Positions 1 through 37,564 of a stretch of 64,000 bases of DNA are shown here, in pieces. The stretch is from a virus (Duplodnaviria; Caudoviricetes). The translations under genes were made by a program, and so were the position numbers. The stretch is taken from the IMG/VR virus record IMGVR_UViG_3300026116_000035; one strand, 5' to 3'. Every line of letters starts with the position of its first letter. Within the stretch, counting starts at the first letter, position 1. Under the pieces are notes generated by a model. It searched no databases and was not told where the DNA came from. It saw only the letters and a program-made list of their open reading frames with translations.

Positions 1-3000
1 ACTTCTAATACTGGTTTACCTGTAAGATTATATTTTGGTGAAGATTCAGTTGGTTTTGATGATCAAAATATAATTGATCAATCGGATACTTCTATAAATT
101 ATCATAGATTTCATGAAATTTATATCTCAGATCAAAAAACTACATTTTCTCATGAACGTGCAAGAATGGCATATACTACCGAAACGTCTAATTTATTAGA
201 TACTAGTAATTGGCATATTCTTTCAGTTTCGCCTAAGTTTAGAGGATATAAAGATACATCTGGATCATTATTAAATAAATACATTAGATTATTAATCACT
301 AATTATAATAGTCAAAGTGGTGAATTTGATGGATATTTAGGAGAAAGAGATAATGTTACAAACCATATATTTAATACTGGTAGATTGATTCGTGGTAAAA
401 AGAACGTTCCAGTTAAATTTTATGATGATACAGATTTAGATTATATTGAATTTGTTTTTAAAGATGAAAGTACAAGCTTACCTACTACTGTTATTCCAAC
501 CAATAAATGGCTGGATATTGAAATTTTTCCATCATTATTATTAGATCAAGAGCTTTTACCTTTAGCTAGTTGTGAAGTCAATTGGACTCCATTAGCTGGT
601 AGAAATATAATTTCATACGTTAAAAATTTAAAGCAATATGGAAGTATTTCCGAGTTAGAATTTACACAATCAGCAGTTAATTTTATAACTTCTGGTGATA
701 GATTCCTTCATGGAAATGGTATTTTATCAGGATTTGATGCCGATATAGCTTTAGGTTCAAATAAAGTTTTAGTACATGGTGGTACTGCTTTAGTAAATGG
801 TAAAATTGTAACTTCTAATAGTTCATTTATTAACATTCCACTTACTCTAACATCACAAGAATATGGTGATGGTGGTGGTAATATGGATTGGATTGTTTGT
901 ATTGATGAGTATGGTGGTATAAAATATTATCCATTAGTTGAAAGTAAACGTGAATTATTAGTTATCGATCCAGATGCAGGCGTTAGTTATATAATTACAT
1001 CTTATACATTTCCGGAATTAATAAGTAATAAATCTGTAACTCCATTATATATAGTTAATGTTACTGTTACTGTCGTTGTGGGTAACAGTACTATTGTTTA
1101 TAATTCATGTTCTGATGCGAGAAAATTTGTAAAAAATGAAACTAATTTAATTCCTCTTACTTGGGTAGGCAAAGAAATAAATGATTCAGATGTTTCTTCT
1201 ACTACAGAATTAAATGGACATTTTAACACTATCAATCAAATAATAACATGGATTAATTGGACTAAATCTCCGTCAAATTTAATTAAATTAAAGGGCAATA
1301 TTATATTAAATAGTTCTTTAGATTTACGCTTTTTGCTTTATCCAACAGTTTTTGATGGTGAAAATGGAGCGAGTATTACTGTTAAAACAAATAGAGGTAT
1401 ATTACCTTCATTATTTGGAAATATAACTTTTAAAAATATATCTTTTAATTGGATATTAGACAGTTTAACTTATGCAGCTGGAGATAATGTTAATTTAGAT
1501 ACATCAGGCTCTCCATCTTTAACTTCTTCTAATGGTCTTATCTATGTATTTAATGATTCTGATGATCTTAAAAACATAACTATTGATAATTGTGTATTTA
1601 CTGGAACTTTTCCACAATCACAAAGGCCACCATACATTGCATTTATCGCTAATACATTTAATGCAAGATTTAATAATATTAAAATCACAAATAATCAATT
1701 CAATGATCCATTTGGTTTAAATAACCAATGCGCTATAGCTATTGTAAGCTTAGGGACTAGTAACATTAGTAGTAACTTAACTGATTCGGGTTTATCAAAT
1801 TCTGTAATTGATAACAATATTGCTAATAATAACCAAAGCATCATTGTTAGCACTTTAGCTAATAATACTCTTAATAGAACTGCATTTTTTTGTTCTAATG
1901 TAAATATTAGTCGAAATAGAGTTGGTGCTATCGGTTATTTAATAAGTTCATATTTCGAAAGTAGTTTAGTATCTGTTTATAAATTTGATTCTAGCGGATT
2001 AAATATATTTAATAATACAACAACATATATTGGTACTTTAGATAGCACTGGTAAAATTTTAGATGACCATTTTTATTCTATTAATAATGTTGGTTCCGGT
2101 GATGTTATTATTAAAGATAATTTTACATCACTTATTTTCTGTAATTTTTATCCATGTTATAACACCGGAAATACAGAATATGGTGAATCATTATTGATTT
2201 CTGGTAATAAATTAAGATTTCCAACTAATTTTAGTTCATTAATTACAGCTTATGGTTATCCAGATTCTAGCACTGCAATTTCTGTAGTTGGCTGGGTAAA
2301 TAGACCTGGTGGTTCAACTACATTACAAACTGATGCAAGAATAGTTCAAATATTAGATAATAATATTATTTATACTGTCAATTCAGTTTCTAATACTGTT
2401 TTATCTTATGATCGAGGCATTAATGTAGAATCAACTGGCGCAATTATAAGAGGAAATGTAATTAGAAACTTCCACTTATATGGAATTAATTTTGATAATA
2501 ATATTGACCGTAATAAACCTGTAAAAGTTGATATTGTAGGAAATCAACTTTATAATATAATTACTACGGCTACTCATTATATTGGCATGAGTGATAATGG
2601 TGGAAATAGTACTTACTTTACCTGTGTAAATAACTTTTTTGATACAACAAGTACTAACGGTTTACCAGAATATATGATTGGAAGAGGCAATATAAATCCA
2701 ACGAATTTTATTATTAAAGATAATACCAATCAAACAGATTCATTTGCTATTAGAGCTATTGATTTTGGTAAAATTGTTTATGATGGCGGTGGTGTTAATT
2801 ACGAACCTCTGTTTAATCCAAGTCCATTTATTGGCCCTGATTCTATTGCTTATTATCCTACTGGTAGTTTATCTAGTCCTGGTAATTTTTCACAACTAAC
2901 TGTTAAGATGAATTTAAATTCATCAGGATTTACTTGGTTCCTTCCCATTTCATCTATTAAACAAAACGTTAAATTTAAATCCGCCAAAATATATTATACA

Positions 3001-4100: not shown

Positions 4101-4115
4101 TTTCTCCTTGAACTT

Positions 4116-4200: not shown

Positions 4201-5007
4201 ATGGCTACTGGTGGTATTAATTTTGGCTCAACTACTGATTTATATAAAATATATTCAATAGTTCAAAATAATTTTATTAGATATACTAAAGATATTATTC
4301 TATCCACTCTTAAGGAATTTTTTGCTAAAGATTCCATGTATCATTATGTTTATGATGAATACGGTTTTGCTAAAGTTAATGATCATACTGACCAAAATAT
4401 TAATGCTGGCCTTCATGATGATTTAACTACTAGAATTTATATAGGTGAATTAAATAGATTCAATGTAATTCACTATCCATCCGTTCTAGTTGGATTTACT
4501 GGCGCAAGATCCGTACCAATTTCATTAAATCGCGATCAAGGAAGAGTTGATTATGTCACAACTACTTTCATTGATGGATACGGAAATGAAAAAACCGCCC
4601 AAACTCCCTACGCCTATATCCTGTCTGGCGCTTGGGAAGGATCTATCTCAATTGATGTTTACTCTAAAGGCGTTCGAGAAAAAGACGATCTTATCGAATT
4701 AATTTCCATATTATTCGTAGATTTAGCTTGGAATAGCCTTTATCGAGCCGGTGTTGCCATAAAACCTAATGTCCAAATAGGGTCCTTAGGTTTTAGTGAT
4801 GATAGAAATGATCGGCTTTATAAACAATCTATTACGCTTGAATTTAGAACAGAATGGCGTAGAGAAATATTAGTTAAAAATATCCTCGAAGTTATAAATT
4901 TTTGCGCAGATTTTGGTGAACTTTTAACCGACCCAGCTCAATTAGCTCCAAATTTGTCTATTAAAGAATCAATTAATTTATTAGATAACATAAATATTTT
5001 AGCTTAA
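4201..5007 (+). CDS. Putative tail completion/terminator (neck) protein
   Basis: Lies directly upstream of the sheath gene; YPSVLVG and SISIDVYSKGVREKDDLIELI resemble tail-terminator folds. Confidence 0.55.
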   Translation: MATGGINFGSTTDLYKIYSIVQNNFIRYTKDIILSTLKEFFAKDSMYHYVYDEYGFAKVNDHTDQNINAGLHDDLTTRIYIGELNRFNVIHYPSVLVGFTGARSVPISLNRDQGRVDYVTTTFIDGYGNEKTAQTPYAYILSGAWEGSISIDVYSKGVREKDDLIELISILFVDLAWNSLYRAGVAIKPNVQIGSLGFSDDRNDRLYKQSITLEFRTEWRREILVKNILEVINFCADFGELLTDPAQLAPNLSIKESINLLDNINILA

Positions 5008-5110: not shown

Positions 5111-7567
5111 ATGTCAAATATTCCTGGCGCACCAAACGCTCTTCCTAACACATATTCTGAAGTTACCACGTTATCAAGCGGTGTTTCTGTTCCTGGTGGC
5201 ATTCGACTTGCCGCTATAATGGGAGAAGGAGCTCGCGTCGAAACTCTTATCTCAAGCGCCAGAGGATCAGGAAATGATGGCCTTAATTCCACTTATACCA
5301 ATACTACTGGTCGTGATGGTCGCCACTTCTTAGTCAGTAAATATCCTCTCATTAGCAATCGTACTACTCTTTATAAAAACGGTATCCCACTAGTAGGTTT
5401 AGAAGATTCCATTGATTCAAGTTCATTTCCCTCTCAATATGATTACCGTGTCGAAATTGCTACAGGTAGAATCGAATTACAAACTGCAGCTCTAGTTGAT
5501 CAGGGTGGAGCTTTTTATTCAGCCTCTGCTCTTAACGTAGGTACAGGTACAATTAATTCATTACAACTTTTAGATGTTAACGCCCCTACTGAAACTTGGA
5601 CTATCCGCTGCACTTCCGTTATTCGTGATGGTTATGGCGCTCCTATTGATGGCTATGCTAAATTTATTGCTCAAGGTTCTGTTTCTGGTTTAGTTCTCGA
5701 TGGTTATGGAAATCAAATCGTTTGGCAATCAAATGGCGTAACTGTTAATAATGGAATATTAACATTTAATATTACTGAAGGTTTAACTGCCCTCCGTGAA
5801 GGTGATAAATTTATTATTAAAGTTAAGAGTGGAGCCTTATTAAACGGTGATTCTCTTTCTGTTACTTATATCGCAGAAAGTGATATTAATGATATTGAAT
5901 TTTTTGATGATATTAATAAATTAACCGCAAAACATGGGTACTCAAGTTTAACTAATAGACTTTCTTTAGGTGCTCAATTAGCTTTTGCAAACGTTCCTCC
6001 AGGTGTATTTACTTGCCAAACTGCTCCCTCTGTTCCCCGCCGAATTTCTTATTTATTAAAAGATTCAGCTACCGGGAAAGTTACTAAAGATGATTTAATG
6101 TTTGATCTTCCTATCGGCGTAACACCCGATCCAGACTCAAGAATTAATTTCTTTATTACCGATCCAGTTACAGGTATCGAAACTCAAATTGTACCGAATA
6201 AAACTGCATTCTATGACCCTACGTTAACAACTACTCCTCAATCATTTATATTCGGTGCAGGTTATACTTTTTCTTATACTGTTGTTATGGAAAATTCAGT
6301 TATCAAAGAAAGTAATGATGGCGTATTAACTGTTACAACTGGTACTCAAGCCACTTTATCCAGCTCTAATGTAAGTTTTAATATTGATGATCTTAGTGGA
6401 ACAAGAAGCGTTTATATTTATGACGCAACTAATTCACAAAATAATGGCGTCGCTACCGTTGTTTCTGTTAAAAATGGTATCGTAACTCTAACTAAAGGTG
6501 GTGGTTTCGTTACTGAATCTCATATCGTTTTTGAAGTTACCGATTCTGCTGCGAAAACTGCTAAAATCTTATTTACCGATGATTTAGTATTAAGTTTAGG
6601 TCAATCATTACGCGCTACTCTAGTTGATGTTAAAGATGCAGATTTCTTTGATGTTGGCTGGACTACCGCTTATGAAGCTCTAGAAAAAATTGATTGTGAT
6701 ATCGTTGTTCCTCTTCCTTCTCAAACAATTTCCGCTATTTTCTCAGAAGGTAAACAACATGTTACCACTATGAGTAATATCGAAAATCAAAAAGAACGTG
6801 TATTATTTATCGGTGCAATTCGTGGTCTAGCTCCAGAAAATGTAATTGGTACCACTGATGCTGCCGTTGAAGATATCGGTGTTCTCGAAGGTATTCAAGG
6901 TGATGATGTATCCGAAGTATTAGCCGGAAATGTTGAAGATCTCGCAAATTATGGTGTTCAAGCTGCTTATGGCGATACCTTTAGAGTTGTTTATTTCTAC
7001 CCTGATGAAATCGTTGTTCAAATTGGCGCCGATAGAACCATAGTTGATGGCTTCTTTATCGCTGCTGCTGCTGCTGGTTTCTTATCTGGCGTAACTAATA
7101 TCGCAATTCCGTTAACTAATAAAACATTATCTGGATTTACGATTCTCCGTGATAAGATTTTCCGCCCAATTACATTACAGCAAATTGCAGCTGCTGGTAT
7201 TACTTTATTACAACCAGTTTCTGGTGGTGGTAAAGTATTATGGGGTAAAACAACTACATTAAGTGGTTTCCCTGAAGAAGAAGAAATCAGCATCGTTTTT
7301 ATTAGAGACCGTGTTGCTAAGATTATGAGAGCCAGTTTCTTAGGGTTTATTGGTGGAGCTGAATCAAGTGCTCTACAAGGATCTCTAATGTCACGTGCTA
7401 CTGGTATATGCAATAGTTTGGTTACTCAGGGTCTAATTACTGCTTATAAAGGTTTGAAGATTGCCAGAGATTCTGTTGATCCGAGGCAATGGAACCTATC
7501 TCTTCAGATACAACCCACCTATCCGGTCAATTGGATCTTTATTAATATCGGCATTGGCATTTTATAA
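5111..7567 (+). CDS. Contractile tail sheath protein with inserted domains
   Basis: The C-terminal half has sheath hallmarks (YEALEKIDCDIVVPL, KERVLFIG, AAAAAGFLSG, EEISIVFIRDRV, LQIQPTYPVNWIFINI); SD GAGG upstream; synteny with the tube gene. Confidence 0.92.
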   Translation: MSNIPGAPNALPNTYSEVTTLSSGVSVPGGIRLAAIMGEGARVETLISSARGSGNDGLNSTYTNTTGRDGRHFLVSKYPLISNRTTLYKNGIPLVGLEDSIDSSSFPSQYDYRVEIATGRIELQTAALVDQGGAFYSASALNVGTGTINSLQLLDVNAPTETWTIRCTSVIRDGYGAPIDGYAKFIAQGSVSGLVLDGYGNQIVWQSNGVTVNNGILTFNITEGLTALREGDKFIIKVKSGALLNGDSLSVTYIAESDINDIEFFDDINKLTAKHGYSSLTNRLSLGAQLAFANVPPGVFTCQTAPSVPRRISYLLKDSATGKVTKDDLMFDLPIGVTPDPDSRINFFITDPVTGIETQIVPNKTAFYDPTLTTTPQSFIFGAGYTFSYTVVMENSVIKESNDGVLTVTTGTQATLSSSNVSFNIDDLSGTRSVYIYDATNSQNNGVATVVSVKNGIVTLTKGGGFVTESHIVFEVTDSAAKTAKILFTDDLVLSLGQSLRATLVDVKDADFFDVGWTTAYEALEKIDCDIVVPLPSQTISAIFSEGKQHVTTMSNIENQKERVLFIGAIRGLAPENVIGTTDAAVEDIGVLEGIQGDDVSEVLAGNVEDLANYGVQAAYGDTFRVVYFYPDEIVVQIGADRTIVDGFFIAAAAAGFLSGVTNIAIPLTNKTLSGFTILRDKIFRPITLQQIAAAGITLLQPVSGGGKVLWGKTTTLSGFPEEEEISIVFIRDRVAKIMRASFLGFIGGAESSALQGSLMSRATGICNSLVTQGLITAYKGLKIARDSVDPRQWNLSLQIQPTYPVNWIFINIGIGIL

Positions 7568-7833: not shown

Positions 7834-7837
7834 TGAA

Positions 7838-8633: not shown

Positions 8634-9272
8634 ATGACACTTAGATTAAATAACCCTGGAACTACTAGAGTAGTTGATCCTGCCACTGGTAAAAATAGAA
8701 CCGCCACTCATTTATCTACTAATATTAATATTTTAGTTGAAGGTATTGCTGTTGGAGCAATACAAAAAATGCAAGTTACTGAAAAGCGATCAATTAAAAT
8801 GGTCGATGAGGTAGGGGGAGATGGCCATGTGGACAGTGCACCTACATCGTCTACTGATGTAAGTGGTTCAATTGATCGTACTCGATTTGATGGTCAGAGA
8901 ATTGCCGAAGCATTTATGAGAGGTTTCGTGCATGTTAAGTCTCAGCGTTTACCGTTTGATATTGAGATTCAGGATACGTTTAAGGGTGGTGATGATCAAT
9001 CAGTTGTAATCACTACGATAAGAAACGTATGGATACAGAGTATTGATTATACATACCAAGCTGATAATTTTATAATTGTTGAAGGTATGAGTTGGGTAGC
9101 AGAGACGATCGATAGTATTATGGGTTCAGGAGCTCCAGTTGTTGGGGACGTGAATGCACGAGGCGTAGCGTTAATAATCAATCCATTTGAGCGTCAGGCT
9201 GATATTGGGCTTTATCGTGGTGCATTGGATGGGGCTGGGTTATTAAATGCGATTGAGGGTTCTACGCTTTAA
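8634..9272 (+). CDS. Tail tube protein
   Basis: Position after the sheath; size 212 aa; INILVEGIAVGAIQKMQVTE, FDIEIQD, TIRNVWIQSIDYTY pattern; SD GAGGA. Confidence 0.85.
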   Translation: MTLRLNNPGTTRVVDPATGKNRTATHLSTNINILVEGIAVGAIQKMQVTEKRSIKMVDEVGGDGHVDSAPTSSTDVSGSIDRTRFDGQRIAEAFMRGFVHVKSQRLPFDIEIQDTFKGGDDQSVVITTIRNVWIQSIDYTYQADNFIIVEGMSWVAETIDSIMGSGAPVVGDVNARGVALIINPFERQADIGLYRGALDGAGLLNAIEGSTL

Positions 9273-9344
9273 TAGGCTCCGTAGTTATATAAATTATAAC
9301 ATTTAATACTATTATTTTTACAATTTAGAAAAATATATTATTTA

Positions 9345-9356
9345 GCATATTTATGA
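9345..9356 (+). promoter_or_regulatory. Repeated intergenic motif GCATATTTATGA (candidate phage late promoter)
   Basis: The identical 12-mer occurs at 24745-24756; both copies are intergenic and upstream of structural genes. Confidence 0.4.
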
Positions 9357-9396
9357 CTAAATGATATATATTATATTATTAATTAAGGAGTATTAG

Positions 9397-10032: not shown

Positions 10033-10406
10033 AAGAGTCCGATCATAGATTCATTTGGTTTTTGTGTCAGAAGTATCAAAAATTGCCGGATGATGATTGG
10101 TTTGAAGAAATCGATCCTATGGTGTGGCTCTGGATGTATATGAGTTGGATAGAAGATCAAAATTCGAAGCATAAATTTGCTAGAGATTATTCTGTATTTT
10201 TGGGTTCATTTAGTAATCCAGAAGCGGCGAAGCAAATTAATAAGAGAGATGATCCTGATTATGCATTGGATGATGAAGAATTTGAGAAGTCTTGGGAAAG
10301 AGTTATAGCTGATAGAGATAAAGTAATTAATAATGACGTAAATAAAGTTGAAAATGAAGGTAAATTAAGGCATAGAAGAAGAGTCTCTAAAAAGGTAATT
10401 AAATAA
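10020..10406 (+). CDS. Frameshift extension of the tail chaperone (GT-like), reading KIVKESDHRFIWFLCQKYQKLPDDDW...
   Basis: The track ORF 10062..10406 has only a TTG start without an SD; the frame is continuous from the slippery site. Confidence 0.72.
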   Translation, partial: KKIVKESDHRFIWFLCQKYQKLPDDDWFEEIDPMVWLWMYMSWIEDQNSKHKFARDYSVFLGSFSNPEAAKQINKRDDPDYALDDEEFEKSWERVIADRDKVINNDVNKVENEGKLRHRRRVSKKVIK

Positions 10407-12571: not shown

Positions 12572-12579
12572 GAAAATAT

Positions 12580-20418: not shown

Positions 20419-20466
20419 AGATATATAGATAGAGTTAATAAATGATAAAACTGTTTGGAAATATTT

Positions 20467-24732: not shown

Positions 24733-24744
24733 ACTAATTAAATC

Positions 24745-24756
24745 GCATATTTATGA
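24745..24756 (+). promoter_or_regulatory. Second copy of GCATATTTATGA
   Basis: Intergenic, 21 nt upstream of the J-like start; identical to 9345-9356. Confidence 0.4.
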
Positions 24757-24777
24757 TTTATACTAATTAGGAATTTA

Positions 24778-28020: not shown

Positions 28021-31000
28021 TGGCTAATATTAGATTAACTAGAATAAAAGTATCAGATAGTACAACAATTAAAGCTGAATTTAATGCAAGTTTAAGTTCT
28101 TTAATTGGTGTAAATAATATAACTGTAACTTCAGGTACTCCAGGAGTTCCAAATGCTGAAGTTTTAAAAGTTAAAGTTTCTGATACAGTTTTAATTATAA
28201 CAACTAGACCGTTGACTCCTTTTATAGCTTATTTTGTAGAATTTAAATCTGTACCAAATTTTCAATTTAAATCAAAAGATGGCCAATCATTTTTATTTGA
28301 AGATGGAAAAACAAATCGTGCTACAGTTTATGGAGTATCTGACCCGGCCGATCCTATTAAAAGTTCATTAACTGATTATTTAAAAGGTAATGTATATAAT
28401 ATAGATGAAAATACTTTAGTTAATACGATATTAAATTCACAAAGTTCTAATTTAAGTAGAGCTTTATATGATATTGGCCAATTAAAAAATGATAATTACT
28501 TAGAAGTATTAATTGAAGATGAAATTAAGGTTCGTGGCTCTGGACCCTATGATAGATTAAATGAAGAAGGGGCTTTTGAAATTATTAGAGTTGGAACAAA
28601 AGCTAGTGGTTCAACCTCTTTTATGGAATTTAATTTTCAAAGTTTTCCGCATAGCAAAATATCATTATTGAAATCTTCTATTGTTAATGAAAGATTAAGT
28701 GCAAGTAATAATTCTACAGGTTTTAATGATTTCATATTAACTGTTTCAAAATATCCAGTTATCACTTTAACTAGTTTAAAAGTAGCATATCAAAATGGTG
28801 GTTCAAGTACATATGATATTAATACTTTTGGATATCAATTAAAAGATCCAAGTTATGATCCAGATAGAGCTTCTACTTATTTACTTTTAAATGACAATCA
28901 AATTAGACTAAGTGAATTAATATTAAATTCAGATTTTATTCTTCCAAAACCAGGCGATACAGTTTATGTAAGTTATGAATTTAAATCATTAGGTAAAATT
29001 ATTAGTGAAGATACTATAGCTGTATCGCAAATAATTGATGCAGTGCGTGAAGTTATTCCGCCATTAAAAAATGATTTTTCTTTAATGAATGCATTATTAG
29101 TTGATAATGATGGAAATACCCCTACAATAGATGGCGTTATATTTTTAGATCCATTATCTAATCCTCCATTTTCTGATGTGCATCCTGCATTTTCTACCGA
29201 AATTCCTTATAAATTAGAAAGATTACCGTCTTTTCCTGGAGAATATTCAATTGATTATGTTAATGGAAGAGTATTTTGTTATGGTGTAAGTGAAAAATTA
29301 AAAGATGGATCAGGTAATTTTCCTCCCGTAGCTACATATAAGTATAAAAAATTATATGATAATAGATTAGATTATACATTTAATAATGAAACATCTGATT
29401 TAGTAGCTTCACCTTTAAGGGAATTAATAGGTGAAAATGTAACTGTATCTTTTAGTTATGAACAAACATTGGTTCCAGGCATTGACTATAAAGCTCAAGT
29501 TCATCAAGAAATAATTAATGAAAGAATTGAAAATAGATTAAAAACATTAGGTTCATTAGGTGTTGAAAATACACCTATTACAAATACGTTTAGAATATTT
29601 AATGAAACTAGTGGTGAAATTTATCCAATAACTAGATTTAATGATAATACTGTATTTTTTACTTACAGTAATCCTCCAGCAATATTAAATATAAATAGAG
29701 AACGAGTTTCATTTACTGACGTTTTGAATGAATTATTAATAGTTAATAATGAATTAATTAATGCTTCTAGTGTTAGAATATTTAAAATAACTTTACAAAA
29801 TAATCAAATTATAAATGGAACTGAAGATGGAATAGGGGCTAGTTTTAATTCTAGTGCTTCATTTAGCAGGACGGATATATTTGAAAAAGAAATTTATTTT
29901 GATGGACAAGAATTAACATTAACTAATAATTTAAATAAATTGGTAATAGGAAATTATCAAATAGATTATGTTAATGGTATTTTATATGTAGCTACTTCTA
30001 ATTCTCAAGATTTAGATTTAGGTACAATTAATTATAAAAAAGCAACTATTTCAACAAAAAATAAACATATAATTAGCGTTTCTAATTTATATAATAGTAT
30101 TAGTTCATTAAAGGGAATTAATAAAACTTTAGATTATAATAGTTTCAGTGATAGTGAAATTGTACCTAGTAAATTAGATCGTTCAGATGAAAGATTTTTA
30201 AATGGTGATGTAACATTATCTTATTTTGTTAATAATGGGACTATATTTGTAACGGATAATATTAAAAATGTTAGAGGTTTATATGATGCTTATGATTTAA
30301 ATAATCATACTCCAATAAATTTTGCTGACACTACTACTGTTGCATCTAATATAATTACATTAAATCCAAATGGCCTTCAGAAAAAAGATACATTAAATAT
30401 TGGGTCATTAGCACAAATTACCGTTCCTTTTATTAGTAATGGCGTAGAAATTGTGAGTGTTTCTAGTGTAATTAGAATTAGTGATGGAGCTCAACTTTGG
30501 GATAATTCAGGAAGTTTTTCAGGATATGTTATTTCATTATCAGGTACGGGTTCACCTTTAATTGGCCAAGCTGTAGTTGTAATTTATAATATTCAATTAA
30601 ATGGGGCAGCTACACCAATTGTAGATTATAATCGTGGAGATTATTTTGTTGATTATTCTTATTTGGCAGATGAAATTTTAGTAAGTTATGAATACGGTGA
30701 TAATTTAATTGATTTTAGAGAATCAGGAACATTAGATGAAGGTGATCAATATTATGTAACTTATAAAGTTGGAGCTTTGCGAGATGCGTTATTAAAGAAT
30801 TTTGGTAGTTTAGTTAATTTACCTATAATGAATAATTTTGACATTTCATTACCAAGAGAAAATTATCGAAATGCATTACAGGGAGCCTTGCAATCATTTC
30901 CTAAAGGCCCAACTATAGCTGCAATTAAAAAATTAGTTTCCAGTATAACTAAAATTGATCCAGCGTTAACTGAATCTGTATTTGATATTTGGTCTTTAGG

Positions 31001-34000
31001 CATAAGTAGATTATTTCAAAATAGAGCTACGATTACTGGTAATCCTACTTTATTAGCAGCTAAATTTGATAACGGCGTATTAATTGATAAATCAGATCAA
31101 ACAATTTCATTTCCAATGACCAGTAATTTAAAATTGGAAAACGGGTCACTTAGATGTTGGGTTATTCCGGAGTGGGATGGATTAGATAATGATGCTACAC
31201 TGACATTTTCTAAAATATTAAAAGATGGTTATCAATTATCTGCTTCAAATATATTTATAGGATCAGATAGTCATAATCCTATTTTTGATATAAATAATAC
31301 ATTTTCAGTAAATAAAGATGATGAATTAACTTCTATTGGTTTGCCATCAAACATTTACACAAAAACTGGTATTTTTATTTATTATGATAATGTAGCTAAA
31401 CGTTGGAAAGTATTAGCTAAAGATTCTACTTCTTCAAACCATACTTATTCTGCTGAAATAAATTCATCAGGTGAAGTTTATGATGTTAAATACATAGAAG
31501 GATTAGGGGAATCTACAGATGTTTTAAGAAGCTTTACTAATAAAATTCAATTTACATTTAATATTGGAACTAGTGAATCAAGTAGTCCTGATGGATATAC
31601 AATAGGTGATGGATATATGGCCGGGTATTCTTTTGATGGAATTACTTTTATGGCTGATGATTTGCATTATTTATTTGATTTTGGTAAAGATGAAACTACC
31701 GAACGATTTTCATTATTTAAAGATGGTAGAGGATATTTAAATTTTGAGGTTTGGGATAAAGGTAATAAATTTAGAAAAAATTCTTATAGAGTTAGTGCTG
31801 ATATTTCTGGATGGTCTGCAGGAGAAAAGCATTTAGTTGGCATTTCTTGGAAAATTAATTCATCAAATAGACAAGATGAAATGCATTTATTTATTGATGG
31901 ATTTGAAGTTCCAAATATTATGAGATATGGTGGTAGACCAGTCGCTTCATCAACTGATCGTTTTAGAGTTATAAAACCAGAAATTATTGCTGGAACGGTT
32001 GCTAAAAAATCTATTTTAGGTAATGATTTAACTACAACAGCTGGTTCAAATATAGTTACTTCTGGTTCAATTTCATTTCAAACACTCGGAATTGTTCCTA
32101 CAGATACAATAGAAATTTTAGAATTAGGTTTTGGCTTATACACAATAACTGGTGTAACAGGAAATACATTAACTTTAAATAATCCTGTTCCAACATCTTT
32201 TTCTGATGCTAGATTTTCAGTAAATCAATTATCTGTAGTAGTATCTTCAGAAATTGATACTTCAGCTAATATAGCTGTTTCAATATTAAGGGGAACTGAG
32301 GAAATTGAAATTCCTGGATTGCGAGCGGATTTACCATCTTATAGAATTAGTAAAGATTCTCAAAATCAAAATATATTAACCATATTGGGTAATGCTAATG
32401 TAGGCGATCAAATTGTAGTAAGAACATTAGGATTAAATCATAGACGTTGTAGAGAAACAGTTTATCTTTGGGGTAATACGACTAATGTATTAAAAACTCA
32501 ATTGCCACCTCCAATAAATCTTGATGAAGTTAAAATTTATCCAGTATTACTGCCATTAGTAACAATTGGGCCAAGCAATTCAACAATTTCTGCTGGTAAA
32601 TTTGTAGCTGTATTTACTCCTAGTCAGCCATCTAATGCATCAGAAGGCAGAACATTATCTGTAAGAATGACTGGTGGAAATATAGATTTTACTACAGCGG
32701 CTACAGTTACAATAGTAGGTGTGGCAGCTTCAGGTCCAGCAACGGTTATTTTATCATTTTCTGCTCCTGGAACTCAATTAACTGTTCAAAAATGGAAAAC
32801 AATTACTTCTATAACTGCAACTATTAAGCCTTTTGTAATTAGTCAAAATTCAGGCTCTGTGGAAGTTAAAGAGGCATATTCACTTACAAATTCTGAAAAT
32901 AATAATTTATTTCCAGTAATTAGATTTAGTTATAAAACTCAAAATGGTAGAACTTTATTTGGAACAGGATCTTCTGCTATTACTGATGATAATGGATTAT
33001 TTGCTGATTCGGATATTGGTAATAAAATTATTATTACTTCCCCTGCCCCTGTAGCCGGAACATATTTAATTACCGATAGAATTGATGAAAAAACGATTAC
33101 AGTTACCCCTAATCCAGGATCTGCCTTTAGTAATGGAGTTTATAGTATTTATAATGTTTCAATTGGTAGAAGTGGATTTCAGAATGGATTTTTTACTTTT
33201 GAAACAGCTGGTTTAACCAATGTTCCATATTATTTACATGAAGGATTATTTCAATTTGATTATACAACATATTTAGAAATAGCATTTAATCCACTAACTG
33301 ATTATAAATTATATATTGGTTCAGATTTAAATGGCAATAATCAAGCAAAAGCAATATTGGATGAGTTTGTAACTACTTCAAATATGCTAACTGATGTTCG
33401 AGTTGGAGAATCAATTGCTGTAAATCAAAAATCATTTACTACTGATTATAATGCATTAAGACCTTATTCGGTAGATAAAAATACATTAATGTTATTAAGA
33501 TTTAATGATAATACATTTATAAACGAAGCGCCATTTTATACTACAGCTATAAAAGATTTTATTCAATCCGGTGATAGTATTAACGATAAATTTAGTCAAT
33601 CTGTTGTTATTAATAACAACCCTTTAATTTTTGATAATAAAGGATTATTATCAACTAGTTCAGAAGGAACAATTGAATTTTGGGTTAGTCCGATTTTTGA
33701 CACATATAATGATCCAAAAATTAGATTCTATTTTGATGCCTCTGGGTCTTTTATAGAAGAAATGATTAGTTTAACTAGTGGTACAGTTAAAGTGAATAAT
33801 TTAATACAAAATGTAGTTAGCGTTAGATTAATTACAGATGTAGATAATAGTGGAGTTAATTATTTTGATGGTGGCAGTATTGCGTCAGATTTTAAAACAA
33901 TAAATCTTGGAATAGCATTACCATATCAGCAAACACCAGTTAAAATTGTATATGTTCCCTCTGGATTAAATGGAAATCGGCTTTCAATTTATAAGGATAC

Positions 34001-34673
34001 AGCCGGATTTATTACATTTAGTGTTAAATCGGGCGGAGTAGATTATCAAGTTCGTCAGCCTGTTTTTTGGGCTCGGAATACTTGGCATAGAGTTAAGGCT
34101 ACATATTTATTTAATTCAGCAAATAATAGAGATGAAATTAGATTATTTGTAGATGGTGAAGAACGTGGTGTTATATTATTCGGAACAGGTTTAGTTTTCG
34201 GTACAGAGACAGTTTTCGGTCAAGGATTAGCTGGATTAAGTGAAACGAGATTGATTACAGATATTAATTTTACAGATCCGGTAAATCAAATATATATTGG
34301 TTCAGATTTTATGATGGCAAATTGCGCTCAAGCTAGAATAGATAATTTTAAAATAAGTAATATAAGGCAACCGTCATTTATTTTGGCAGGACAGGCCAAA
34401 GATATTAATTATAGTTCAAATATATCTACAGTTTATCCAGTAATTGAAGATGCTTTTACTACATTTTTAATGAATTTCGATCAATTAATTCAAAAATCTG
34501 AAGATTTTGCTGTATTAAGAGATGAACTATTTGGCATATTTAATTTTACTTTACAAATCATAGATTCATTTGGTATAGTTATAGATAATGCAAAATTGAA
34601 ACAAGTTTTAGAAAGTCTTATTTTTGCTCTTAAACCGGCTCAAAGTCGCGTAAATTTGGAATATATAACATGA
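28020..34673 (+). CDS. Very large baseplate wedge protein (gpI-like) with two LamG/ConA-like regions
   Basis: LLKNFGSLVNLP...RENYRNALQGALQSFPKGPTIAAIKKLV and the terminal LKPAQSRVNLEY are gpI-like. GSLRCWVIP/KHLVGISW...MHLFIDG and GTIEFWVSP/TWHRVKATY...IRLFVDG are LamG-like. Confidence 0.7.
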   Translation: MANIRLTRIKVSDSTTIKAEFNASLSSLIGVNNITVTSGTPGVPNAEVLKVKVSDTVLIITTRPLTPFIAYFVEFKSVPNFQFKSKDGQSFLFEDGKTNRATVYGVSDPADPIKSSLTDYLKGNVYNIDENTLVNTILNSQSSNLSRALYDIGQLKNDNYLEVLIEDEIKVRGSGPYDRLNEEGAFEIIRVGTKASGSTSFMEFNFQSFPHSKISLLKSSIVNERLSASNNSTGFNDFILTVSKYPVITLTSLKVAYQNGGSSTYDINTFGYQLKDPSYDPDRASTYLLLNDNQIRLSELILNSDFILPKPGDTVYVSYEFKSLGKIISEDTIAVSQIIDAVREVIPPLKNDFSLMNALLVDNDGNTPTIDGVIFLDPLSNPPFSDVHPAFSTEIPYKLERLPSFPGEYSIDYVNGRVFCYGVSEKLKDGSGNFPPVATYKYKKLYDNRLDYTFNNETSDLVASPLRELIGENVTVSFSYEQTLVPGIDYKAQVHQEIINERIENRLKTLGSLGVENTPITNTFRIFNETSGEIYPITRFNDNTVFFTYSNPPAILNINRERVSFTDVLNELLIVNNELINASSVRIFKITLQNNQIINGTEDGIGASFNSSASFSRTDIFEKEIYFDGQELTLTNNLNKLVIGNYQIDYVNGILYVATSNSQDLDLGTINYKKATISTKNKHIISVSNLYNSISSLKGINKTLDYNSFSDSEIVPSKLDRSDERFLNGDVTLSYFVNNGTIFVTDNIKNVRGLYDAYDLNNHTPINFADTTTVASNIITLNPNGLQKKDTLNIGSLAQITVPFISNGVEIVSVSSVIRISDGAQLWDNSGSFSGYVISLSGTGSPLIGQAVVVIYNIQLNGAATPIVDYNRGDYFVDYSYLADEILVSYEYGDNLIDFRESGTLDEGDQYYVTYKVGALRDALLKNFGSLVNLPIMNNFDISLPRENYRNALQGALQSFPKGPTIAAIKKLVSSITKIDPALTESVFDIWSLGISRLFQNRATITGNPTLLAAKFDNGVLIDKSDQTISFPMTSNLKLENGSLRCWVIPEWDGLDNDATLTFSKILKDGYQLSASNIFIGSDSHNPIFDINNTFSVNKDDELTSIGLPSNIYTKTGIFIYYDNVAKRWKVLAKDSTSSNHTYSAEINSSGEVYDVKYIEGLGESTDVLRSFTNKIQFTFNIGTSESSSPDGYTIGDGYMAGYSFDGITFMADDLHYLFDFGKDETTERFSLFKDGRGYLNFEVWDKGNKFRKNSYRVSADISGWSAGEKHLVGISWKINSSNRQDEMHLFIDGFEVPNIMRYGGRPVASSTDRFRVIKPEIIAGTVAKKSILGNDLTTTAGSNIVTSGSISFQTLGIVPTDTIEILELGFGLYTITGVTGNTLTLNNPVPTSFSDARFSVNQLSVVVSSEIDTSANIAVSILRGTEEIEIPGLRADLPSYRISKDSQNQNILTILGNANVGDQIVVRTLGLNHRRCRETVYLWGNTTNVLKTQLPPPINLDEVKIYPVLLPLVTIGPSNSTISAGKFVAVFTPSQPSNASEGRTLSVRMTGGNIDFTTAATVTIVGVAASGPATVILSFSAPGTQLTVQKWKTITSITATIKPFVISQNSGSVEVKEAYSLTNSENNNLFPVIRFSYKTQNGRTLFGTGSSAITDDNGLFADSDIGNKIIITSPAPVAGTYLITDRIDEKTITVTPNPGSAFSNGVYSIYNVSIGRSGFQNGFFTFETAGLTNVPYYLHEGLFQFDYTTYLEIAFNPLTDYKLYIGSDLNGNNQAKAILDEFVTTSNMLTDVRVGESIAVNQKSFTTDYNALRPYSVDKNTLMLLRFNDNTFINEAPFYTTAIKDFIQSGDSINDKFSQSVVINNNPLIFDNKGLLSTSSEGTIEFWVSPIFDTYNDPKIRFYFDASGSFIEEMISLTSGTVKVNNLIQNVVSVRLITDVDNSGVNYFDGGSIASDFKTINLGIALPYQQTPVKIVYVPSGLNGNRLSIYKDTAGFITFSVKSGGVDYQVRQPVFWARNTWHRVKATYLFNSANNRDEIRLFVDGEERGVILFGTGLVFGTETVFGQGLAGLSETRLITDINFTDPVNQIYIGSDFMMANCAQARIDNFKISNIRQPSFILAGQAKDINYSSNISTVYPVIEDAFTTFLMNFDQLIQKSEDFAVLRDELFGIFNFTLQIIDSFGIVIDNAKLKQVLESLIFALKPAQSRVNLEYIT

Positions 34674-37564
34674 CACGTAGAATTCCCATAAGTACTGTTC
34701 AAAATTTATATCATGATGCTCAGCGAGTGGATAAAAATGATTTAGATGTAGAGCAAAATTATAATACACAAACAAATGCAGCAATTGTTAATAATTTTTT
34801 TGGGTCCGGTGTATTAGTTAATAGTCCAGAACAAACTATATTATTTGATTCAAATAATTTGGATGTAATACAAGCTGCATTAGCGGCAGCCAATAAATTT
34901 GATGGCAGTGGAATTAATCCAACTTTTCAGCCATCAGATAATAATTTGGGCAATCAAATAGAGATTGAATTATTAGATTCTGAAATATTTGGAAGGTTAA
35001 CAACTAGTGTATTAATTATAGGTTTATCTTTTAATGATGAATTAATTTATGATAGATTTATATTTCATAGAAACGAAAAACAAGTCTCAAGTAAACACTA
35101 TAAAAAAATATTAACTATATTATTTAACGATTTTATGGGAAACAATAATTGTTCTAGAAATAATGGTGGAAGAATTATTGTTCGTGAAGCTTTTTCATTT
35201 CAATTATCTAGAGATGCCATTATGGTTTCTCAAGATGTAGAACCGAATATATTTTTTAGAGATTTTAAAGTTGCTGATGGATATGTAGGTTTATATCATA
35301 CAATACAAAATGCTATTGGATCTGCTTATAACGCTGACGATTTGCAAATAAATATTACTGGAGCAGGTAGAAGAAGTATTGGCCCAAATGATGTAACAAC
35401 GCAAGTAGGGCAAAAATTTTTAGCAACTACGAATAATATTCAAAAAGTTACATTTTTAATGGGAGCTTACAGAAATGATTCAGTTCCTGTGGCAAATCGA
35501 TTTGATTGGGCAGGTGATTTAATTGTTAGTATATATCCATTACAAACTACTGTCAGTTGTCCTACAGATATTATTCCTGAATTAGCAATAGATTTTGATC
35601 CGGCTAGAACACCTTTAGTTGAAGTTAGTTTTAGTCAATCTGAGTTAAGGGATTTAGGATATGTGTTAACTGATGTAGCTCAACCTGTAGATTTTATTTT
35701 TAATTCTACAAAAATAGCAAATGCTGGCGGGATTATTATTGGTAATTATTATGCAGTAACATTTAGACGATCTGGTTCTTCTTCAAGTGGAACAATATTT
35801 GTAGAAACTGGAGCAAATTGGATTGATAATTCCCGTTTAACTGTATTTAATAATGTTTGGGTTGATACAAATGAAGAAGATTTATGGTTTCAGATTTGGT
35901 CTGATGCAGCAAAAGTAGCAGATGGTCAAGGGTTTGATGCTGGAAATGGTATGTTATTTGAAAAAACCAAAATTGATGAAAAAACTGGAGCTACAGTTGA
36001 TAATCAAGTTGGTCATTTTTCTTTTAGTACTACTGGTCAAGGTACAATAAATACAGGAATTATACAAGCTATTTTAAATGATAGCGTATCTATTCAAGAT
36101 GAACGGACTGGAAATCCTACATTTTCTAGAAAACAATTTGTACCATCGTTTAGCTTTGTAGATAATGCAAATTTAGCTAAATTAAATAGTATTTCAGAGC
36201 CATTAATTATTGGATCAGTTGCTGATAATAATCCTAAAATAAATCCATCACTTAATAAAACTCAAAAAATTCCAGGGTTAGTTAAAAATGATTCTTTTTG
36301 TATTTTAAATCCTGATCCTGATTTATTAAGTTTACAATTAATTGGCAGTAAATTAATTCCTAATACCAGTAAAGCTTATGATTATCGAATATTTAAAGTT
36401 CAATATTGTGTAGATGGTTATGGTGATGTTAATGGTGATGGTATCATTGATGATAGTGATGTTACAAGAGCTTCTGAATTATTAGGCGAGGGTATTAATA
36501 TAACTAGCACTCAGACTAAAATTGTAAATGGTCAAATTGACACATTAGAATTATTGCGAGCAGATGTTGATGGAGATGGAGTTATAACTACAAATGACGT
36601 TAATTTGATACAAAATTATGTAAATCGTTCAAATAATACATTTCCTGTTGGCTCAAGTTTTACTCATATGTGTTTATTGGTTCAACAAAGTATTGGTAGA
36701 AGTGATGGATATTATGATTGTACACAAGGTTATATAAGATTAGATGGATATGTTGGTGCCAATAAAGTCTTGGCTTCTTCATTAGACCCTACAGTATTAA
36801 TTTATGATGGTTATTATACAAATGTAATTATGAATCAAACGGATACATCGTGGAATACTGTGCCATTTTCACCAATTAATTATCAGATTAAATTTCAATC
36901 ATTTTGGCAAGATTATTTATTAACATTAAGGAGTAATGCCAGGCTAATCCCTACGACATTTACATATAAAAACGGAATTATACCCGAAGACTGTTCTGTA
37001 CTTTCATCATTTAATTGCGTTGATAAAGTTGGTTTAATACCTACAGTTGATTCGGGCAGAAATGATTATTTCGTTCCTGATAATTTAATTCTTGGCAAAG
37101 GTGAAATTTTAAGACCTGATGGAAGTAGTTATAAGACTGATTTTGAAATAGGCACAATTATATTAGAACTTCCATCTTCTTCAATTTCTGAAAAATCTAT
37201 AAATATATTTGATGCATTTGTGGCCGATGTAGGTGATGGTAGGACGGCTTCTGGGTATAATGCATTAAGATATTCTGATTGTTCTACAGTAAAACCTTTA
37301 GATATATTAAATAATAAAATTAGATTTGATGTTTCTATACAATCTATTAATCATGATAAAACAGCACCAGATGATATTATTGGAGTATATGTTGATCAAA
37401 GTACCGGTTTAATGAATTTAACTTCTAAACATACGTTATCTGATCCTATTTTTGCTGATCTGAGAACTAGAATTCAAATTTTAGTATACTTAAAGAAAGG
37501 CGGCTGGAACAATGCGGCATTAGTTGTTTTAGGTAATGAAGTAACCGGATTATTCGCTTCATAA
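34670..37564 (+). CDS. Baseplate/fibre-attachment protein with a dockerin-like EF-hand pair
   Basis: N-terminal YHDAQRVDKNDLDVEQNY resembles wedge/fibre-base proteins; GDVNGDGIIDDSD and ADVDGDGVITTNDVNLIQNYV. Confidence 0.65.
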   Translation: MTRRIPISTVQNLYHDAQRVDKNDLDVEQNYNTQTNAAIVNNFFGSGVLVNSPEQTILFDSNNLDVIQAALAAANKFDGSGINPTFQPSDNNLGNQIEIELLDSEIFGRLTTSVLIIGLSFNDELIYDRFIFHRNEKQVSSKHYKKILTILFNDFMGNNNCSRNNGGRIIVREAFSFQLSRDAIMVSQDVEPNIFFRDFKVADGYVGLYHTIQNAIGSAYNADDLQINITGAGRRSIGPNDVTTQVGQKFLATTNNIQKVTFLMGAYRNDSVPVANRFDWAGDLIVSIYPLQTTVSCPTDIIPELAIDFDPARTPLVEVSFSQSELRDLGYVLTDVAQPVDFIFNSTKIANAGGIIIGNYYAVTFRRSGSSSSGTIFVETGANWIDNSRLTVFNNVWVDTNEEDLWFQIWSDAAKVADGQGFDAGNGMLFEKTKIDEKTGATVDNQVGHFSFSTTGQGTINTGIIQAILNDSVSIQDERTGNPTFSRKQFVPSFSFVDNANLAKLNSISEPLIIGSVADNNPKINPSLNKTQKIPGLVKNDSFCILNPDPDLLSLQLIGSKLIPNTSKAYDYRIFKVQYCVDGYGDVNGDGIIDDSDVTRASELLGEGINITSTQTKIVNGQIDTLELLRADVDGDGVITTNDVNLIQNYVNRSNNTFPVGSSFTHMCLLVQQSIGRSDGYYDCTQGYIRLDGYVGANKVLASSLDPTVLIYDGYYTNVIMNQTDTSWNTVPFSPINYQIKFQSFWQDYLLTLRSNARLIPTTFTYKNGIIPEDCSVLSSFNCVDKVGLIPTVDSGRNDYFVPDNLILGKGEILRPDGSSYKTDFEIGTIILELPSSSISEKSINIFDAFVADVGDGRTASGYNALRYSDCSTVKPLDILNNKIRFDVSIQSINHDKTAPDDIIGVYVDQSTGLMNLTSKHTLSDPIFADLRTRIQILVYLKKGGWNNAALVVLGNEVTGLFAS

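What the first reader, a model, noticed from the sequence alone, without database searches (positions are those of the whole stretch)
328..36814. D-G-Y tripeptide strongly enriched in structural proteins: candidate acceptor motif for the phage glycosylation machinery
DGY occurs 15 times in tail/baseplate proteins, at 328, 4573, 5627, 5648, 5699, 19732, 21817, 31224, 31590, 31608, 35276, 36413, 36704, 36743 and 36806. By hand count that is 15 of about 73 DG dipeptides, versus 0 of about 25 in the enzymes and tubulin, while Tyr makes up only a few percent of residues. Copies cluster in loop-like inserts (RDGYGAPIDGY in the sheath, PDGYTIGDGYMAGY, five in the dockerin protein). Tyr O-glycosylation is established for some Gram-positive S-layer proteins. 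Inference: DGY is a recognition or modification sequon, or a docking motif for a decoration protein.
Basis: partly seen in the sequence, partly recalled or inferred. Interest (0 to 1): 0.8.

Follow-up and report, generated by a model that had tools for sequence, protein, structure and literature searches.

The report
DGY motif on outer tail proteins
The outward-facing tail and baseplate proteins of this uncultured huge phage and its many relatives carry the three-residue motif Asp-Gly-Tyr far more often than chance, which points to an undescribed surface mark that something reads, most plausibly the phage's own sugar-adding enzymes, though no modification has been shown.

Summary
All 15 DGY sites are at the stated coordinates: 15 of 75 DG in the structural genes against 0 of 28 in the enzyme genes. 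DGY is the most over-represented of all 8000 tripeptides (15 against about 2 expected; 0 of 1000 shuffles reach it).

It replicates outside the window (9 more in two upstream virion proteins) and across the clade:
- 75 related loci with GC 29-54% give observed/expected about 9.
- In nine genomes, seven outer-protein families have 243 DGY per 611 DG. Inner tail proteins have 7 per 245 and the glycan-locus enzymes 1 per 167.
- Unrelated myovirus modules give 21 per 364.

The motif is ordered and residue-specific: NGY, EGY and the five permutations are not enriched, DGF only about 2.5-fold. Tyr-to-Phe replacement is unusually rare. Sites lie in loops, and new sites arise in indel regions.

The glycosylation reading is only circumstantial. 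A soluble multi-glycosyltransferase locus follows the two DGY-richest genes in all 11 long genome records examined, so I found no relative lacking either trait. A sister clade with a different, GT4-rich locus also keeps DGY.

This phage is a DGY-poor member of its clade. The scan had already noted the same motif on at least eight related genomes.

The parts
1..3276 (+). C-terminal 1091 aa of a 1789-aa virion protein that starts 2094 nt upstream of the window. DGY at 328-336; three more DGY lie upstream of the window.
   Evidence: Orthologs in 9 genomes carry 2-11 DGY per 11-23 DG. Only 1 DGY column is shared by all 9 genomes and 14 of 22 occur in a single genome. The window's site at 328 is shared by 6 of 9.
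4201..5007 (+). 268-aa protein between the large virion protein and the sheath. Its single DG is a DGY at 4573-4581.
   Evidence: The sole or one of two DG is DGY in 7 of 9 orthologs.
5111..7567 (+). Tail sheath (818 aa) with DGY at 5627, 5648 and 5699 (aa 173, 180, 197), in loops of an N-terminal beta insertion domain.
   Evidence: AF2 model pLDDT 82.9, with DSSP '-' at all three sites. Fold match to the phi812 sheath: Z 33.5, rmsd 2.5, 320 residues aligned. DGY is kept in 108, 115 and 113 of 120 homologs.
8634..18440 (+). Inner tail proteins without DGY: 212-aa tube-like protein, 211 aa, 114 aa, 721 aa, 328-aa tube-initiator-like protein, and a 1624-aa protein (likely tape measure).
   Evidence: 0 DGY here. 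0 of 60 DG in the 1624-aa family across 9 genomes. Weak hits to Pfam PF23980 and phrog_985.
18424..20418 (+). 664-aa protein with one DGY at 19732-19740 that is not conserved.
   Evidence: DGY is present only here and in one of eight relatives. Counted with the DGY-poor class.
20455..22620 (+). 721-aa baseplate-region protein with DGY at 21817-21825.
   Evidence: This column is DGY in 8 of 9 genomes. Orthologs carry 1-3 DGY per 3-8 DG.
24304..28020 (+). Sheath-initiator-like (gp25-like) protein and Baseplate J protein, both DGY-poor.
   Evidence: PF10934 (weak) and PF04865 at E 1.7e-17. 0 DGY here and 3 per 61 DG in the J family across 9 genomes.
28020..34673 (+). 2217-aa peripheral baseplate protein with DGY at 31224, 31590 and 31608.
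   Evidence: These three are the near-universal sites (8-9 of 9 genomes). The ortholog in G004 has 16. There are 28 distinct DGY columns, 18 of them in a single genome.
34670..37564 (+). 964-aa baseplate protein with a type I dockerin (aa 584-652). DGY at 35276, 36413, 36704, 36743 and 36806.
   Evidence: PF00404 at E 1e-7. AF2 pLDDT 85.4. Foldseek finds phi812 baseplate chains and a dockerin. 120 homologs average 8.6 DGY per 14.7 DG.
38593..48657 (+). Glycosyltransferase block: GT4, GT2 x4, GT11, a GT1-like protein and three proteins with no Pfam family. 0 DGY.
   Evidence: Pfam. The first five genes are conserved in all 9 genomes; the 693-aa protein was not found in G004 and the distal genes are missing from one to three genomes. 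No membrane proteins. The GT4 at 38593-39693 is the only transferase with a full-length match in sister clade B; the GT2 at 39690-40433 and the GT1-like gene have partial matches.
48777..57921 (+). Block largely specific to this phage: carbamoyltransferase, HAD phosphatases, nucleotidyltransferases, cupin, methyltransferase.
   Evidence: Pfam. No ortholog in seven of the eight compared relatives; only G009 has hits, to three of the genes.
58484..61422 (+). GDP-mannose 4,6-dehydratase and two NAD-dependent epimerase/reductases (GDP-6-deoxyhexose supply).
   Evidence: PF16363 at E 6e-102 and PF01370. Conserved in most of the 9 genomes.

Best explanation
DGY is a short linear motif kept by selection on loops of the outward-facing tail proteins: a large protein encoded upstream of the sheath, the sheath's insertion domain, and peripheral baseplate proteins. 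It is kept off the tube, the likely tape measure, the hub-side proteins, the block holding terminase and portal, and the enzymes. The most likely single mechanism is that it is the acceptor site of the phage's own soluble, cytoplasmic glycosylation machinery. An initiating transferase would recognise Asp at -2 and Gly at -1 and put the first sugar on the Tyr hydroxyl. The neighbouring transferases would extend it with a 6-deoxyhexose-containing glycan made from GDP-mannose. The candidate initiator is the GT4 gene that follows the dockerin protein gene, directly in relatives and after one small inserted gene here. Shown: the enrichment, its order and residue specificity, its outer/inner partition, its loop context, its turnover, and the constant synteny with a membrane-free transferase locus. 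Inferred: that the locus acts on proteins, that Tyr is the modified residue, and which enzyme initiates.
For: - Enrichment: DGY ranks first of 8000 tripeptides in the window. It ranks first again in G004 (69 against 3.7 expected) and in sister-clade G010 (13 against 2.55).
- Partition over nine genomes: outer 243/611, inner 7/245, enzymes 1/167. No DGY occurs in any ORF of 250 aa or more (about 47 DG) in the 43-kb block of G004 that holds terminase and portal.
- Chemistry-like specificity in G004: NGY 0.8x, EGY 0.4x, SGY 0.6x, DAY 0.3x, the five permutations 0.3-2.4x, DGF 2.5x, against DGY 18.6x.
- Tyr-to-Phe makes up 14% of replacements at 12 DGY columns against 59% at 35 other Tyr columns.
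- Context independence: no extended consensus around the sites. Tandem copies occur in inserts, such as three DGY within a 12-residue insert in L006 and six within about 40 residues in a 301-aa protein of G004. Even the dockerin's calcium loops carry DGY in most relatives.
- New sites arise preferentially at indel columns (7/27 against 5% background).
- Loop context in two confident models.
- Machinery: at least 8 transferases plus GDP-mannose dehydratase and reductases follow the two DGY-richest genes, with only one small gene between them. None has transmembrane segments. The same arrangement holds in all 11 long genome records checked.
- Precedents: chloroviruses glycosylate their capsid in the cytoplasm with viral enzymes, including GMD and GMER, at non-canonical sites (PMC5408694). 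[quoted passage not shown]
Against: - No direct evidence of any modification.
- Synteny is shared ancestry across one super-clade, in effect a single observation.
- The sister clade's locus is GT4-rich with one GT2, against GT2-rich here, yet DGY persists there.
- This phage has the most elaborate glycan locus but nearly the fewest DGY: 3 against 16 in the 2217-aa family and 5 against a family mean of 8.6.
- DGY is not avoided in the rest of the G004 proteome (22 against 13-17 expected), which a promiscuous cytoplasmic enzyme might be expected to cause.
- The head-module block has no DGY, which is odd for a general glycan shield.
- T4, with no known virion glycosylation, shows a mild excess (10/68).
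- The locus could instead serve DNA or small-molecule glycosylation.
Confidence: 0.4

Rival explanations
1. DGY is an intrinsic ligand-binding element. Asp plus an exposed Tyr on a flexible Gly turn would form many weak binding sites for host surface glycans, or for metal ions, on the outside of the tail. This would resemble the Ig-like or lectin-like adhesion domains of other phages, and nothing would modify it.
For: Restricted to outward-facing, beta-rich domains. The dockerin protein's weak fold neighbours include malectin-like, glycan-binding and PNGase F-type beta sandwiches. Asp plus an aromatic residue is the usual make-up of sugar-binding sites (established knowledge). In G004 a DGY cluster sits beside His-rich tracts. 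The need for Tyr rather than Phe fits hydrogen-bonding contacts as well as modification. The absence from the head-module block fits a role in adsorption.
Against: Binding sites are normally built from a fold, not from a portable tripeptide that works in unrelated contexts, in tandem arrays and in inserts. It gives no reason for the conserved transferase locus. The sheath is an unusual place for receptor binding.
Confidence: 0.25
2. DGY is read by something other than a glycosyltransferase. Candidates are a docking site for a decoration, fibre or assembly protein, or the site of another Tyr or Asp chemistry (cross-link, phosphorylation, nucleotidylation, sulfation).
Against: No candidate kinase, sulfotransferase or cohesin-like partner was seen in the window by Pfam. 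Tandem and very dense copies are unlike a stoichiometric docking site.
Confidence: 0.15
3. DGY is only a favoured structural turn (Asp-Gly turn followed by an aromatic strand start) of the beta-rich domains these proteins are built from. It would have been inherited and amplified by domain duplication, with no reader.
For: Several sites are strongly conserved in position together with their surroundings (sheath). Some read D-G-Y-G-x-P/Q-I/V, like the DxxGxP hairpin common in bacterial Ig-like domains (my recollection, not tested). T4 tail proteins show a mild excess.
Against: Asn-Gly, the best type I' turn, is not enriched before Tyr (0.8x), and Phe does not substitute for Tyr. There is no common flanking sequence. 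In the models the sites sit in longer loops, not two-residue hairpins. 18 of 28 sites in one family occur in a single genome against about 4 expected by chance (my estimate from the composition), often in inserts. Inner beta-rich proteins have none.
Confidence: 0.15
4. Chance, composition or DNA-level artefact.
For: Sites cluster. The window alone, with clusters collapsed, gives p 4e-5, which is not significant across 8000 tripeptides.
Against: Replication outside the window, in 75 loci of GC 29-54% and in whole genomes. All codon combinations are used, and none of the GATGGNTAY words in this record is out of frame.
Confidence: 0.02

Closest known systems
[quoted passage not shown]
   Same: The virus encodes soluble glycosyltransferases together with GDP-mannose 4,6-dehydratase and a reductase/epimerase. 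Glycosylation is cytoplasmic and uses sites that are not the canonical sequon. Here too there are at least 8 soluble transferases plus GMD and reductases.
   Different: In chloroviruses the acceptor is Asn (beta-Glc-Asn) on the capsid. Here the candidate acceptor is Tyr in a DGY motif on tail and baseplate proteins, and the block holding terminase and portal has no DGY. Nothing is demonstrated here.
Virion glycosylation of mycobacteriophages by phage-encoded glycosyltransferases (Freeman et al. 2023, as cited in PMC12619734)
   Same: Phage-encoded transferases decorate the phage's own structural proteins.
   Different: There the glycans are described at the C-termini of capsid and tail tube subunits, made by one or two transferases. 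Here the tube and head-module proteins lack the motif, the motif is internal and loop-borne, and the locus holds 20-odd genes.
Tyrosine O-glycosylation of S-layer proteins (Paenibacillus alvei SpaA, Thermoanaerobacter; PMC2943079)
   Same: Establishes Gal- or Glc-beta-Tyr linkages on surface proteins of Gram-positive bacteria. Gram-positive bacteria are the possible host group (a dockerin domain; one homolog binned to Anaerovoracaceae).
   Different: The S-layer route builds the glycan on a lipid carrier, exports it and transfers it outside the membrane with an O-oligosaccharyltransferase. The window has no membrane protein at all. No DGY sequon is reported for S-layers in the paper I could read.
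Short bacterial sequons with an upstream acidic residue: Campylobacter PglB D/E-X-N-X-S/T and the Bacteroidetes O-glycosylation motif D-(S/T)-(A/I/L/V/M/T) (from my own knowledge; the latter also named in scan note e1-5380317)
   Same: Three- to five-residue motifs in which Asp near the modified residue is required. In D-G-Y the Asp is at -2 from the hydroxyl residue, as in the PglB sequon.
   Different: Those systems are periplasmic, lipid-linked and modify Asn or Ser/Thr. Membership was not tested and is not claimed.

Membership tests
Enzyme-read linear motif (sequon-like) | Order- and residue-specific enrichment not explained by composition | tested here: met
   In G004, DGY is 18.6x. The permutations are 0.3-2.4x, NGY 0.8x, EGY 0.4x, DGF 2.5x. 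In the window DGY ranks first of 8000 tripeptides.
Enzyme-read linear motif (sequon-like) | Works in unrelated sequence contexts, with sites gained and lost | tested here: met
   No flanking consensus. 28 DGY columns in the 2217-aa family, 18 in a single genome, enriched at indel columns. Tandem copies in inserts.
Enzyme-read linear motif (sequon-like) | Sites accessible on the folded protein surface | tested here: inconclusive
   DSSP places the sites in loops or at element ends in two models of pLDDT 83-85. No coordinates are returned, so solvent exposure could not be computed.
Enzyme-read linear motif (sequon-like) | Covalent modification found at the motif | not testable with these tools
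   Needs mass spectrometry or a structure.
Virus-encoded cytoplasmic virion glycosylation (chlorovirus type) | Soluble viral glycosyltransferases with nucleotide-sugar enzymes and no lipid-carrier, flippase or ligase genes | tested here: met
   Pfam finds GT4, GT2 x4, GT11, a GT1-like protein, GMD at E 6e-102 and epimerases. No protein in the locus has more than one weak hydrophobic segment.
Virus-encoded cytoplasmic virion glycosylation (chlorovirus type) | Motif and locus gained or lost together across lineages | tested here: inconclusive
   All 11 long genome records have both. No lineage lacking one was found, and sister clade B keeps DGY with a differently composed locus.
S-layer type Tyr O-glycosylation | Membrane O-oligosaccharyltransferase, initiating phosphoglycosyltransferase and exporter | tested here: not met
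   No such Pfam families and no polytopic membrane protein in the window. The rest of the genome was not examined.
Mycobacteriophage-type virion glycosylation | Glycan acceptors on capsid and tail tube subunits | tested here: not met
   The tube-like protein family has 0 DGY in 9 genomes. The block with terminase and portal in G004 has no DGY in ORFs of 250 aa or more, about 47 DG. This tests only the DGY motif, not Ser/Thr tails.
Generic type I' beta-turn | Asn-Gly at least as favoured as Asp-Gly, aromatic residues interchangeable, two-residue hairpin | tested here: not met
   NGY 0.8x and DGF 2.5x against DGY 18.6x. Phe makes up 14% of replacements against 59% elsewhere. The sheath sites lie in 5-residue loops.
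Contractile tail sheath (gene 5111-7567) | Sheath core fold | tested here: met
   VIA-align Z 33.5, rmsd 2.5 A, 320 residues aligned to the phi812 sheath; about 50 sheath entries at Z above 22.
Type I dockerin (aa 584-652 of gene 34670-37564) | Pfam PF00404 above its cut-off, and the dockerin fold | tested here: met
   32.5 bits against a cut-off of 22.9. Foldseek probability 1.0 and target TM 0.75 to the ScaB dockerin.

The most novel reading that the evidence does not exclude
Huge phages of this clade carry a new kind of protein glycosylation. A soluble, phage-encoded transferase would recognise the tripeptide Asp-Gly-Tyr on folded tail proteins in the cytoplasm and start a Tyr-O-linked, deoxyhexose-containing glycan. 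The contractile tail and baseplate, but not the head, would then be sugar-coated. DGY would be the first defined tyrosine sequon and a portable tag for glycoengineering.
Probability: 0.35. Interest if true: 0.85.

Novelty: new variant of a known kind. Interest (0 to 1): 0.68.

Why it matters
If DGY is read by an enzyme, it would be the first tyrosine-directed sequon and the first evidence that huge phages decorate their tails rather than their heads. That bears on host recognition, on evasion of defences that sense tail proteins, and on glycoengineering, because a three-residue tag works in many folds. If it is instead an intrinsic binding element, it is still an unusually simple and strongly selected surface feature shared by hundreds of uncultured phages. 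It also gives a cheap sequence rule for telling outer from inner tail proteins in these poorly annotated genomes. The statistical pattern is solid. The function is open and can be tested directly by co-expression and mass spectrometry.

Tried and rejected
- DNA-level motif: rejected. All 22 GATGGNTAY words are in-frame, there are none on the other strand, and 14 of 16 codon combinations are used in a relative with 43% GC.
- One repeated domain carrying DGY: rejected, because there is no flanking consensus.
- Calcium-loop (DxDxDG) explanation: it fits only the dockerin loops. Elsewhere Asp at -2 or -4 is not typical.
- Search for relatives without DGY or without transferases:
  - 75 loci of the clade are all enriched.
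  - Nine long records all have a GT2 cluster.
  - A profile search found sheaths with 0 DGY. Their clade B looked DGY-free around the sheath (33/755 DG) and had one GT2 at most.
  - Its baseplate orthologs are nevertheless enriched (13/86), and it has 6-10 GT4 genes in the syntenic place. The apparent contrast therefore dissolved.
- More distant sheaths vary widely in DGY content (0/14 up to 5/9). They sit on contigs of 4-20 kb or gave no DNA, and two IMG/VR scans found nothing.
- Literature: no paper holds the phrase 'DGY motif'. Two papers could not be read.
- The moraphage paper (PMC12619734) describes a different lineage.
- PDB sequence search of the conserved GT4 gave only generic GT4 hits, among them a chlorovirus transferase (E 5e-4). 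The 693-aa protein gave none. An Atlas lead (score 0.89, below the 0.9 line) suggests a divergent GT-B with an N-terminal extension.
- No complex prediction was run, because no specific binding pair is claimed.
Full report
**What the window is.** The 64-kb window lies in an 84.6-kb IMG/VR fragment (CheckV completeness 20%, GC about 28%). It comes from an uncultured huge phage. The same sheath protein also occurs on a 390-kb contig. Genes 1..37564 form a contractile-tail and baseplate module:
- a sheath (fold Z 33.5 to the phi812 sheath);
- weak tube-initiator and sheath-initiator matches;
- Baseplate J;
- a 964-aa protein with a type I dockerin.

Genes 38593..61422 form a glycan locus: GT4, four GT2, GT11, a GT1-like protein, carbamoyltransferase, HAD phosphatases, nucleotidyltransferases, a methyltransferase, GDP-mannose 4,6-dehydratase and two epimerase/reductases. 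A TubZ-like tubulin and a UvsW-like helicase follow. No protein of the locus is a membrane protein.

They are 15 of 75 DG in the structural genes and 0 of 28 in the rest.
- Against composition, 1.96 are expected (p 2.9e-9). Against a first-order Markov model, 3.24 are expected (p 1.7e-6). DGY ranks first of all tripeptides, and no within-protein shuffle out of 1000 comes near.
- The sites are clustered. With clusters collapsed, the window alone would be only suggestive (10 against 1.97).
- What makes the pattern certain is replication. Upstream of the window, the same record has a 960-aa protein with 6 DGY in 13 DG. The N-terminal part of the window's first gene adds 3 more.
- The signal is in the protein. 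Every GATGGNTAY word is an in-frame DGY and none lies on the other strand.

**It is a trait of a large clade.**
- The sheath has more than 600 metagenomic homologs, and 203 IMG/VR stretches encode a relative.
- In 75 loci around the sheath, with GC from 29 to 54%, DGY is 569 against 63 expected.
- I fetched one whole 392-kb relative (G004, GC 43%). It has 91 DGY, 69 of them in the 63-kb tail block against 3.7 expected. Fourteen codon combinations are used.
- I built an ortholog table over nine genomes. Seven protein families carry the motif: the 960-aa and 1789-aa proteins upstream of the sheath, a 268-aa protein, the sheath, a 721-aa protein, the 2217-aa protein and the dockerin protein. Together they have 243 DGY per 611 DG.
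- The tube-like protein, the 1624-aa likely tape measure (0 of 60 DG), the initiator-like proteins and Baseplate J have 7 per 245. The enzymes of the glycan locus have 1 per 167.
- In G004, the 43-kb block that contains terminase and portal has no DGY in any ORF of 250 aa or more, about 47 DG.
- Tail modules of T4, phiKZ, phage G and Eggerthella phage LE2-3 give 21 per 364. T4 alone shows a mild excess of 10 per 68.

**Nature of the motif.**
- It is ordered and residue-specific. In G004 the five permutations, NGY, EGY, SGY and DAY are at or below about 2.4-fold. DGF and DGW are about 2.5-fold. DGY is 18.6-fold.
- A plain Asp/Asn-Gly turn followed by an aromatic residue would not discriminate in this way.
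- At 12 DGY columns of the sheath and dockerin-protein alignments, Phe makes up 14% of replacements. At 35 other Tyr columns it makes up 59%. The cells are phylogenetically dependent, so the size of the effect counts, not the p value.
- There is no consensus around the sites.
- Some sites are nearly universal: the three in the sheath (108-115 of 120) and about eleven columns in the dockerin protein. Many others are lineage-specific. The 2217-aa family has 28 DGY columns in nine genomes, 18 of them in a single genome, where my estimate from composition is about 4 by chance. They fall preferentially at indel columns (7 of 27 against 5% of columns).
- Inserts can consist largely of the motif.
- In AF2 models of the sheath (pLDDT 82.9) and the dockerin protein (pLDDT 85.4), the sites lie in loops or at the ends of elements. 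The sheath sites lie outside the roughly 320 residues that align with minimal sheaths. By what is known of sheath architecture, that means the outer surface. This last step is an inference.

**This phage is a DGY-poor member of its clade.** Its 2217-aa protein keeps only the three near-universal sites, against 16 in G004. Its dockerin protein has 5 against a family mean of 8.6. It has DGI, NGQ, DGV and QGY where most relatives have DGY.

**The link to glycosylation.**
- For it: the transferase locus follows the two DGY-richest genes. It is entirely soluble and includes a GDP-6-deoxyhexose pathway. It is syntenic in every long genome record examined. Chloroviruses set a precedent for cytoplasmic, virus-encoded glycosylation at non-canonical sites with GMD and GMER (PMC5408694). 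Tyr-linked glycans are known on Gram-positive S-layers (PMC2943079).
- Against it, or neutral:
  - I could not find a lineage that lacks one trait. A sister clade with long sheaths first looked like one: 33 DGY per 755 DG around the sheath and at most one GT2 gene. Its baseplate orthologs are nevertheless enriched (13 of 86, inner 0 of 21, DGY again the top tripeptide). It also has 6-10 GT4 genes in the syntenic position.
  - So an earlier scan note saying the two traits appear and disappear together was not reproduced on my sample.
  - Only the GT4 next to the dockerin protein gene has a full-length match in both clades. This makes it my candidate initiator, by inference only.
  - DGY is not avoided in the rest of the G004 proteome.
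  - The phage with the largest locus has nearly the fewest sites.

**Verdict.** I give 0.4 to the Tyr-glycosylation sequon. About 0.25 goes to an intrinsic ligand-binding element, 0.15 to another reader or chemistry, 0.15 to a purely structural turn, and almost nothing to chance.

**Prior notes and literature.** The scan had already flagged the same motif on at least eight related genomes. Those notes are not independent evidence. My tests agree with them on the enrichment and on the outer/inner split. They disagree on two points: the co-variation with transferase genes, and the claim that the number of sites is kept constant. I found no paper describing the motif.

Noticed in passing
L002:2500-5382 (own record, upstream of the window): The 960-aa DGY-rich virion protein has PHROG matches in aa 340-775 to families annotated as anaerobic RNR, HNH endonuclease and DNA polymerase. 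This pattern is typical of an intein with a homing endonuclease. The G004 homolog is only 697 aa.
   Followed up: no
window:7838-8569: An endonuclease VII-like gene (phrog_1035, E 2e-8) sits between sheath and tube. Orthologs are present in only some relatives, so it is probably a mobile nuclease.
   Followed up: no
window:37577-38167: A 2H phosphoesterase (LigT-like, weak Acb1 match at E 0.002) is inserted between the dockerin protein gene and the first glycosyltransferase. It is absent at this place in seven of eight relatives. It could be a cyclic-nucleotide-degrading counter-defence gene.
   Followed up: no
window:48777-57921: The block from carbamoyltransferase through methyltransferase has no ortholog in seven of the eight compared relatives; only G009 has hits to three of its genes. 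The glycan locus therefore has a conserved core and a variable, lineage-specific tailoring part.
   Followed up: partly
window:3270-4100 (- strand): This is the only minus-strand gene of the module (276 aa, 14.5% Gly, no family match). A minus-strand ORF of 235-263 aa occupies the same position in several relatives.
   Followed up: no
L100:12547-13452 (- strand; G004 332547-333452): A 301-aa protein in which all 9 DG are DGY. Six lie within about 40 residues of a Pro/Tyr-rich segment next to His-rich and Cys/His-rich tracts. It would be a good test substrate, and it hints at metal binding.
   Followed up: no
window:36413-36640 (dockerin, aa 584-652): In most of 120 homologs the residue after the DG of the dockerin calcium loops is Tyr (57, 71 and 106 of 120). 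This phage has Ile, Gln and Val there.
   Followed up: partly
P0304, P0320, P0324 against P0362, P0365, P0381 (distant sheath representatives): Very long sheaths (1065-1474 aa) of other lineages vary widely in DGY: 4/9, 4/7 and 5/9 against 0/12, 0/14 and 0/11. The trait may recur outside this clade. Contigs were too short to check for transferase loci.
   Followed up: partly
L106 (phage T4, 75-125 kb): The T4 structural region has 10 DGY per 68 DG over called ORFs. Seven DGY fall in annotated proteins: gp7, gp8, gp12, gp18, gp27, gp28 and UvsW. This mild excess is unexplained.
   Followed up: no
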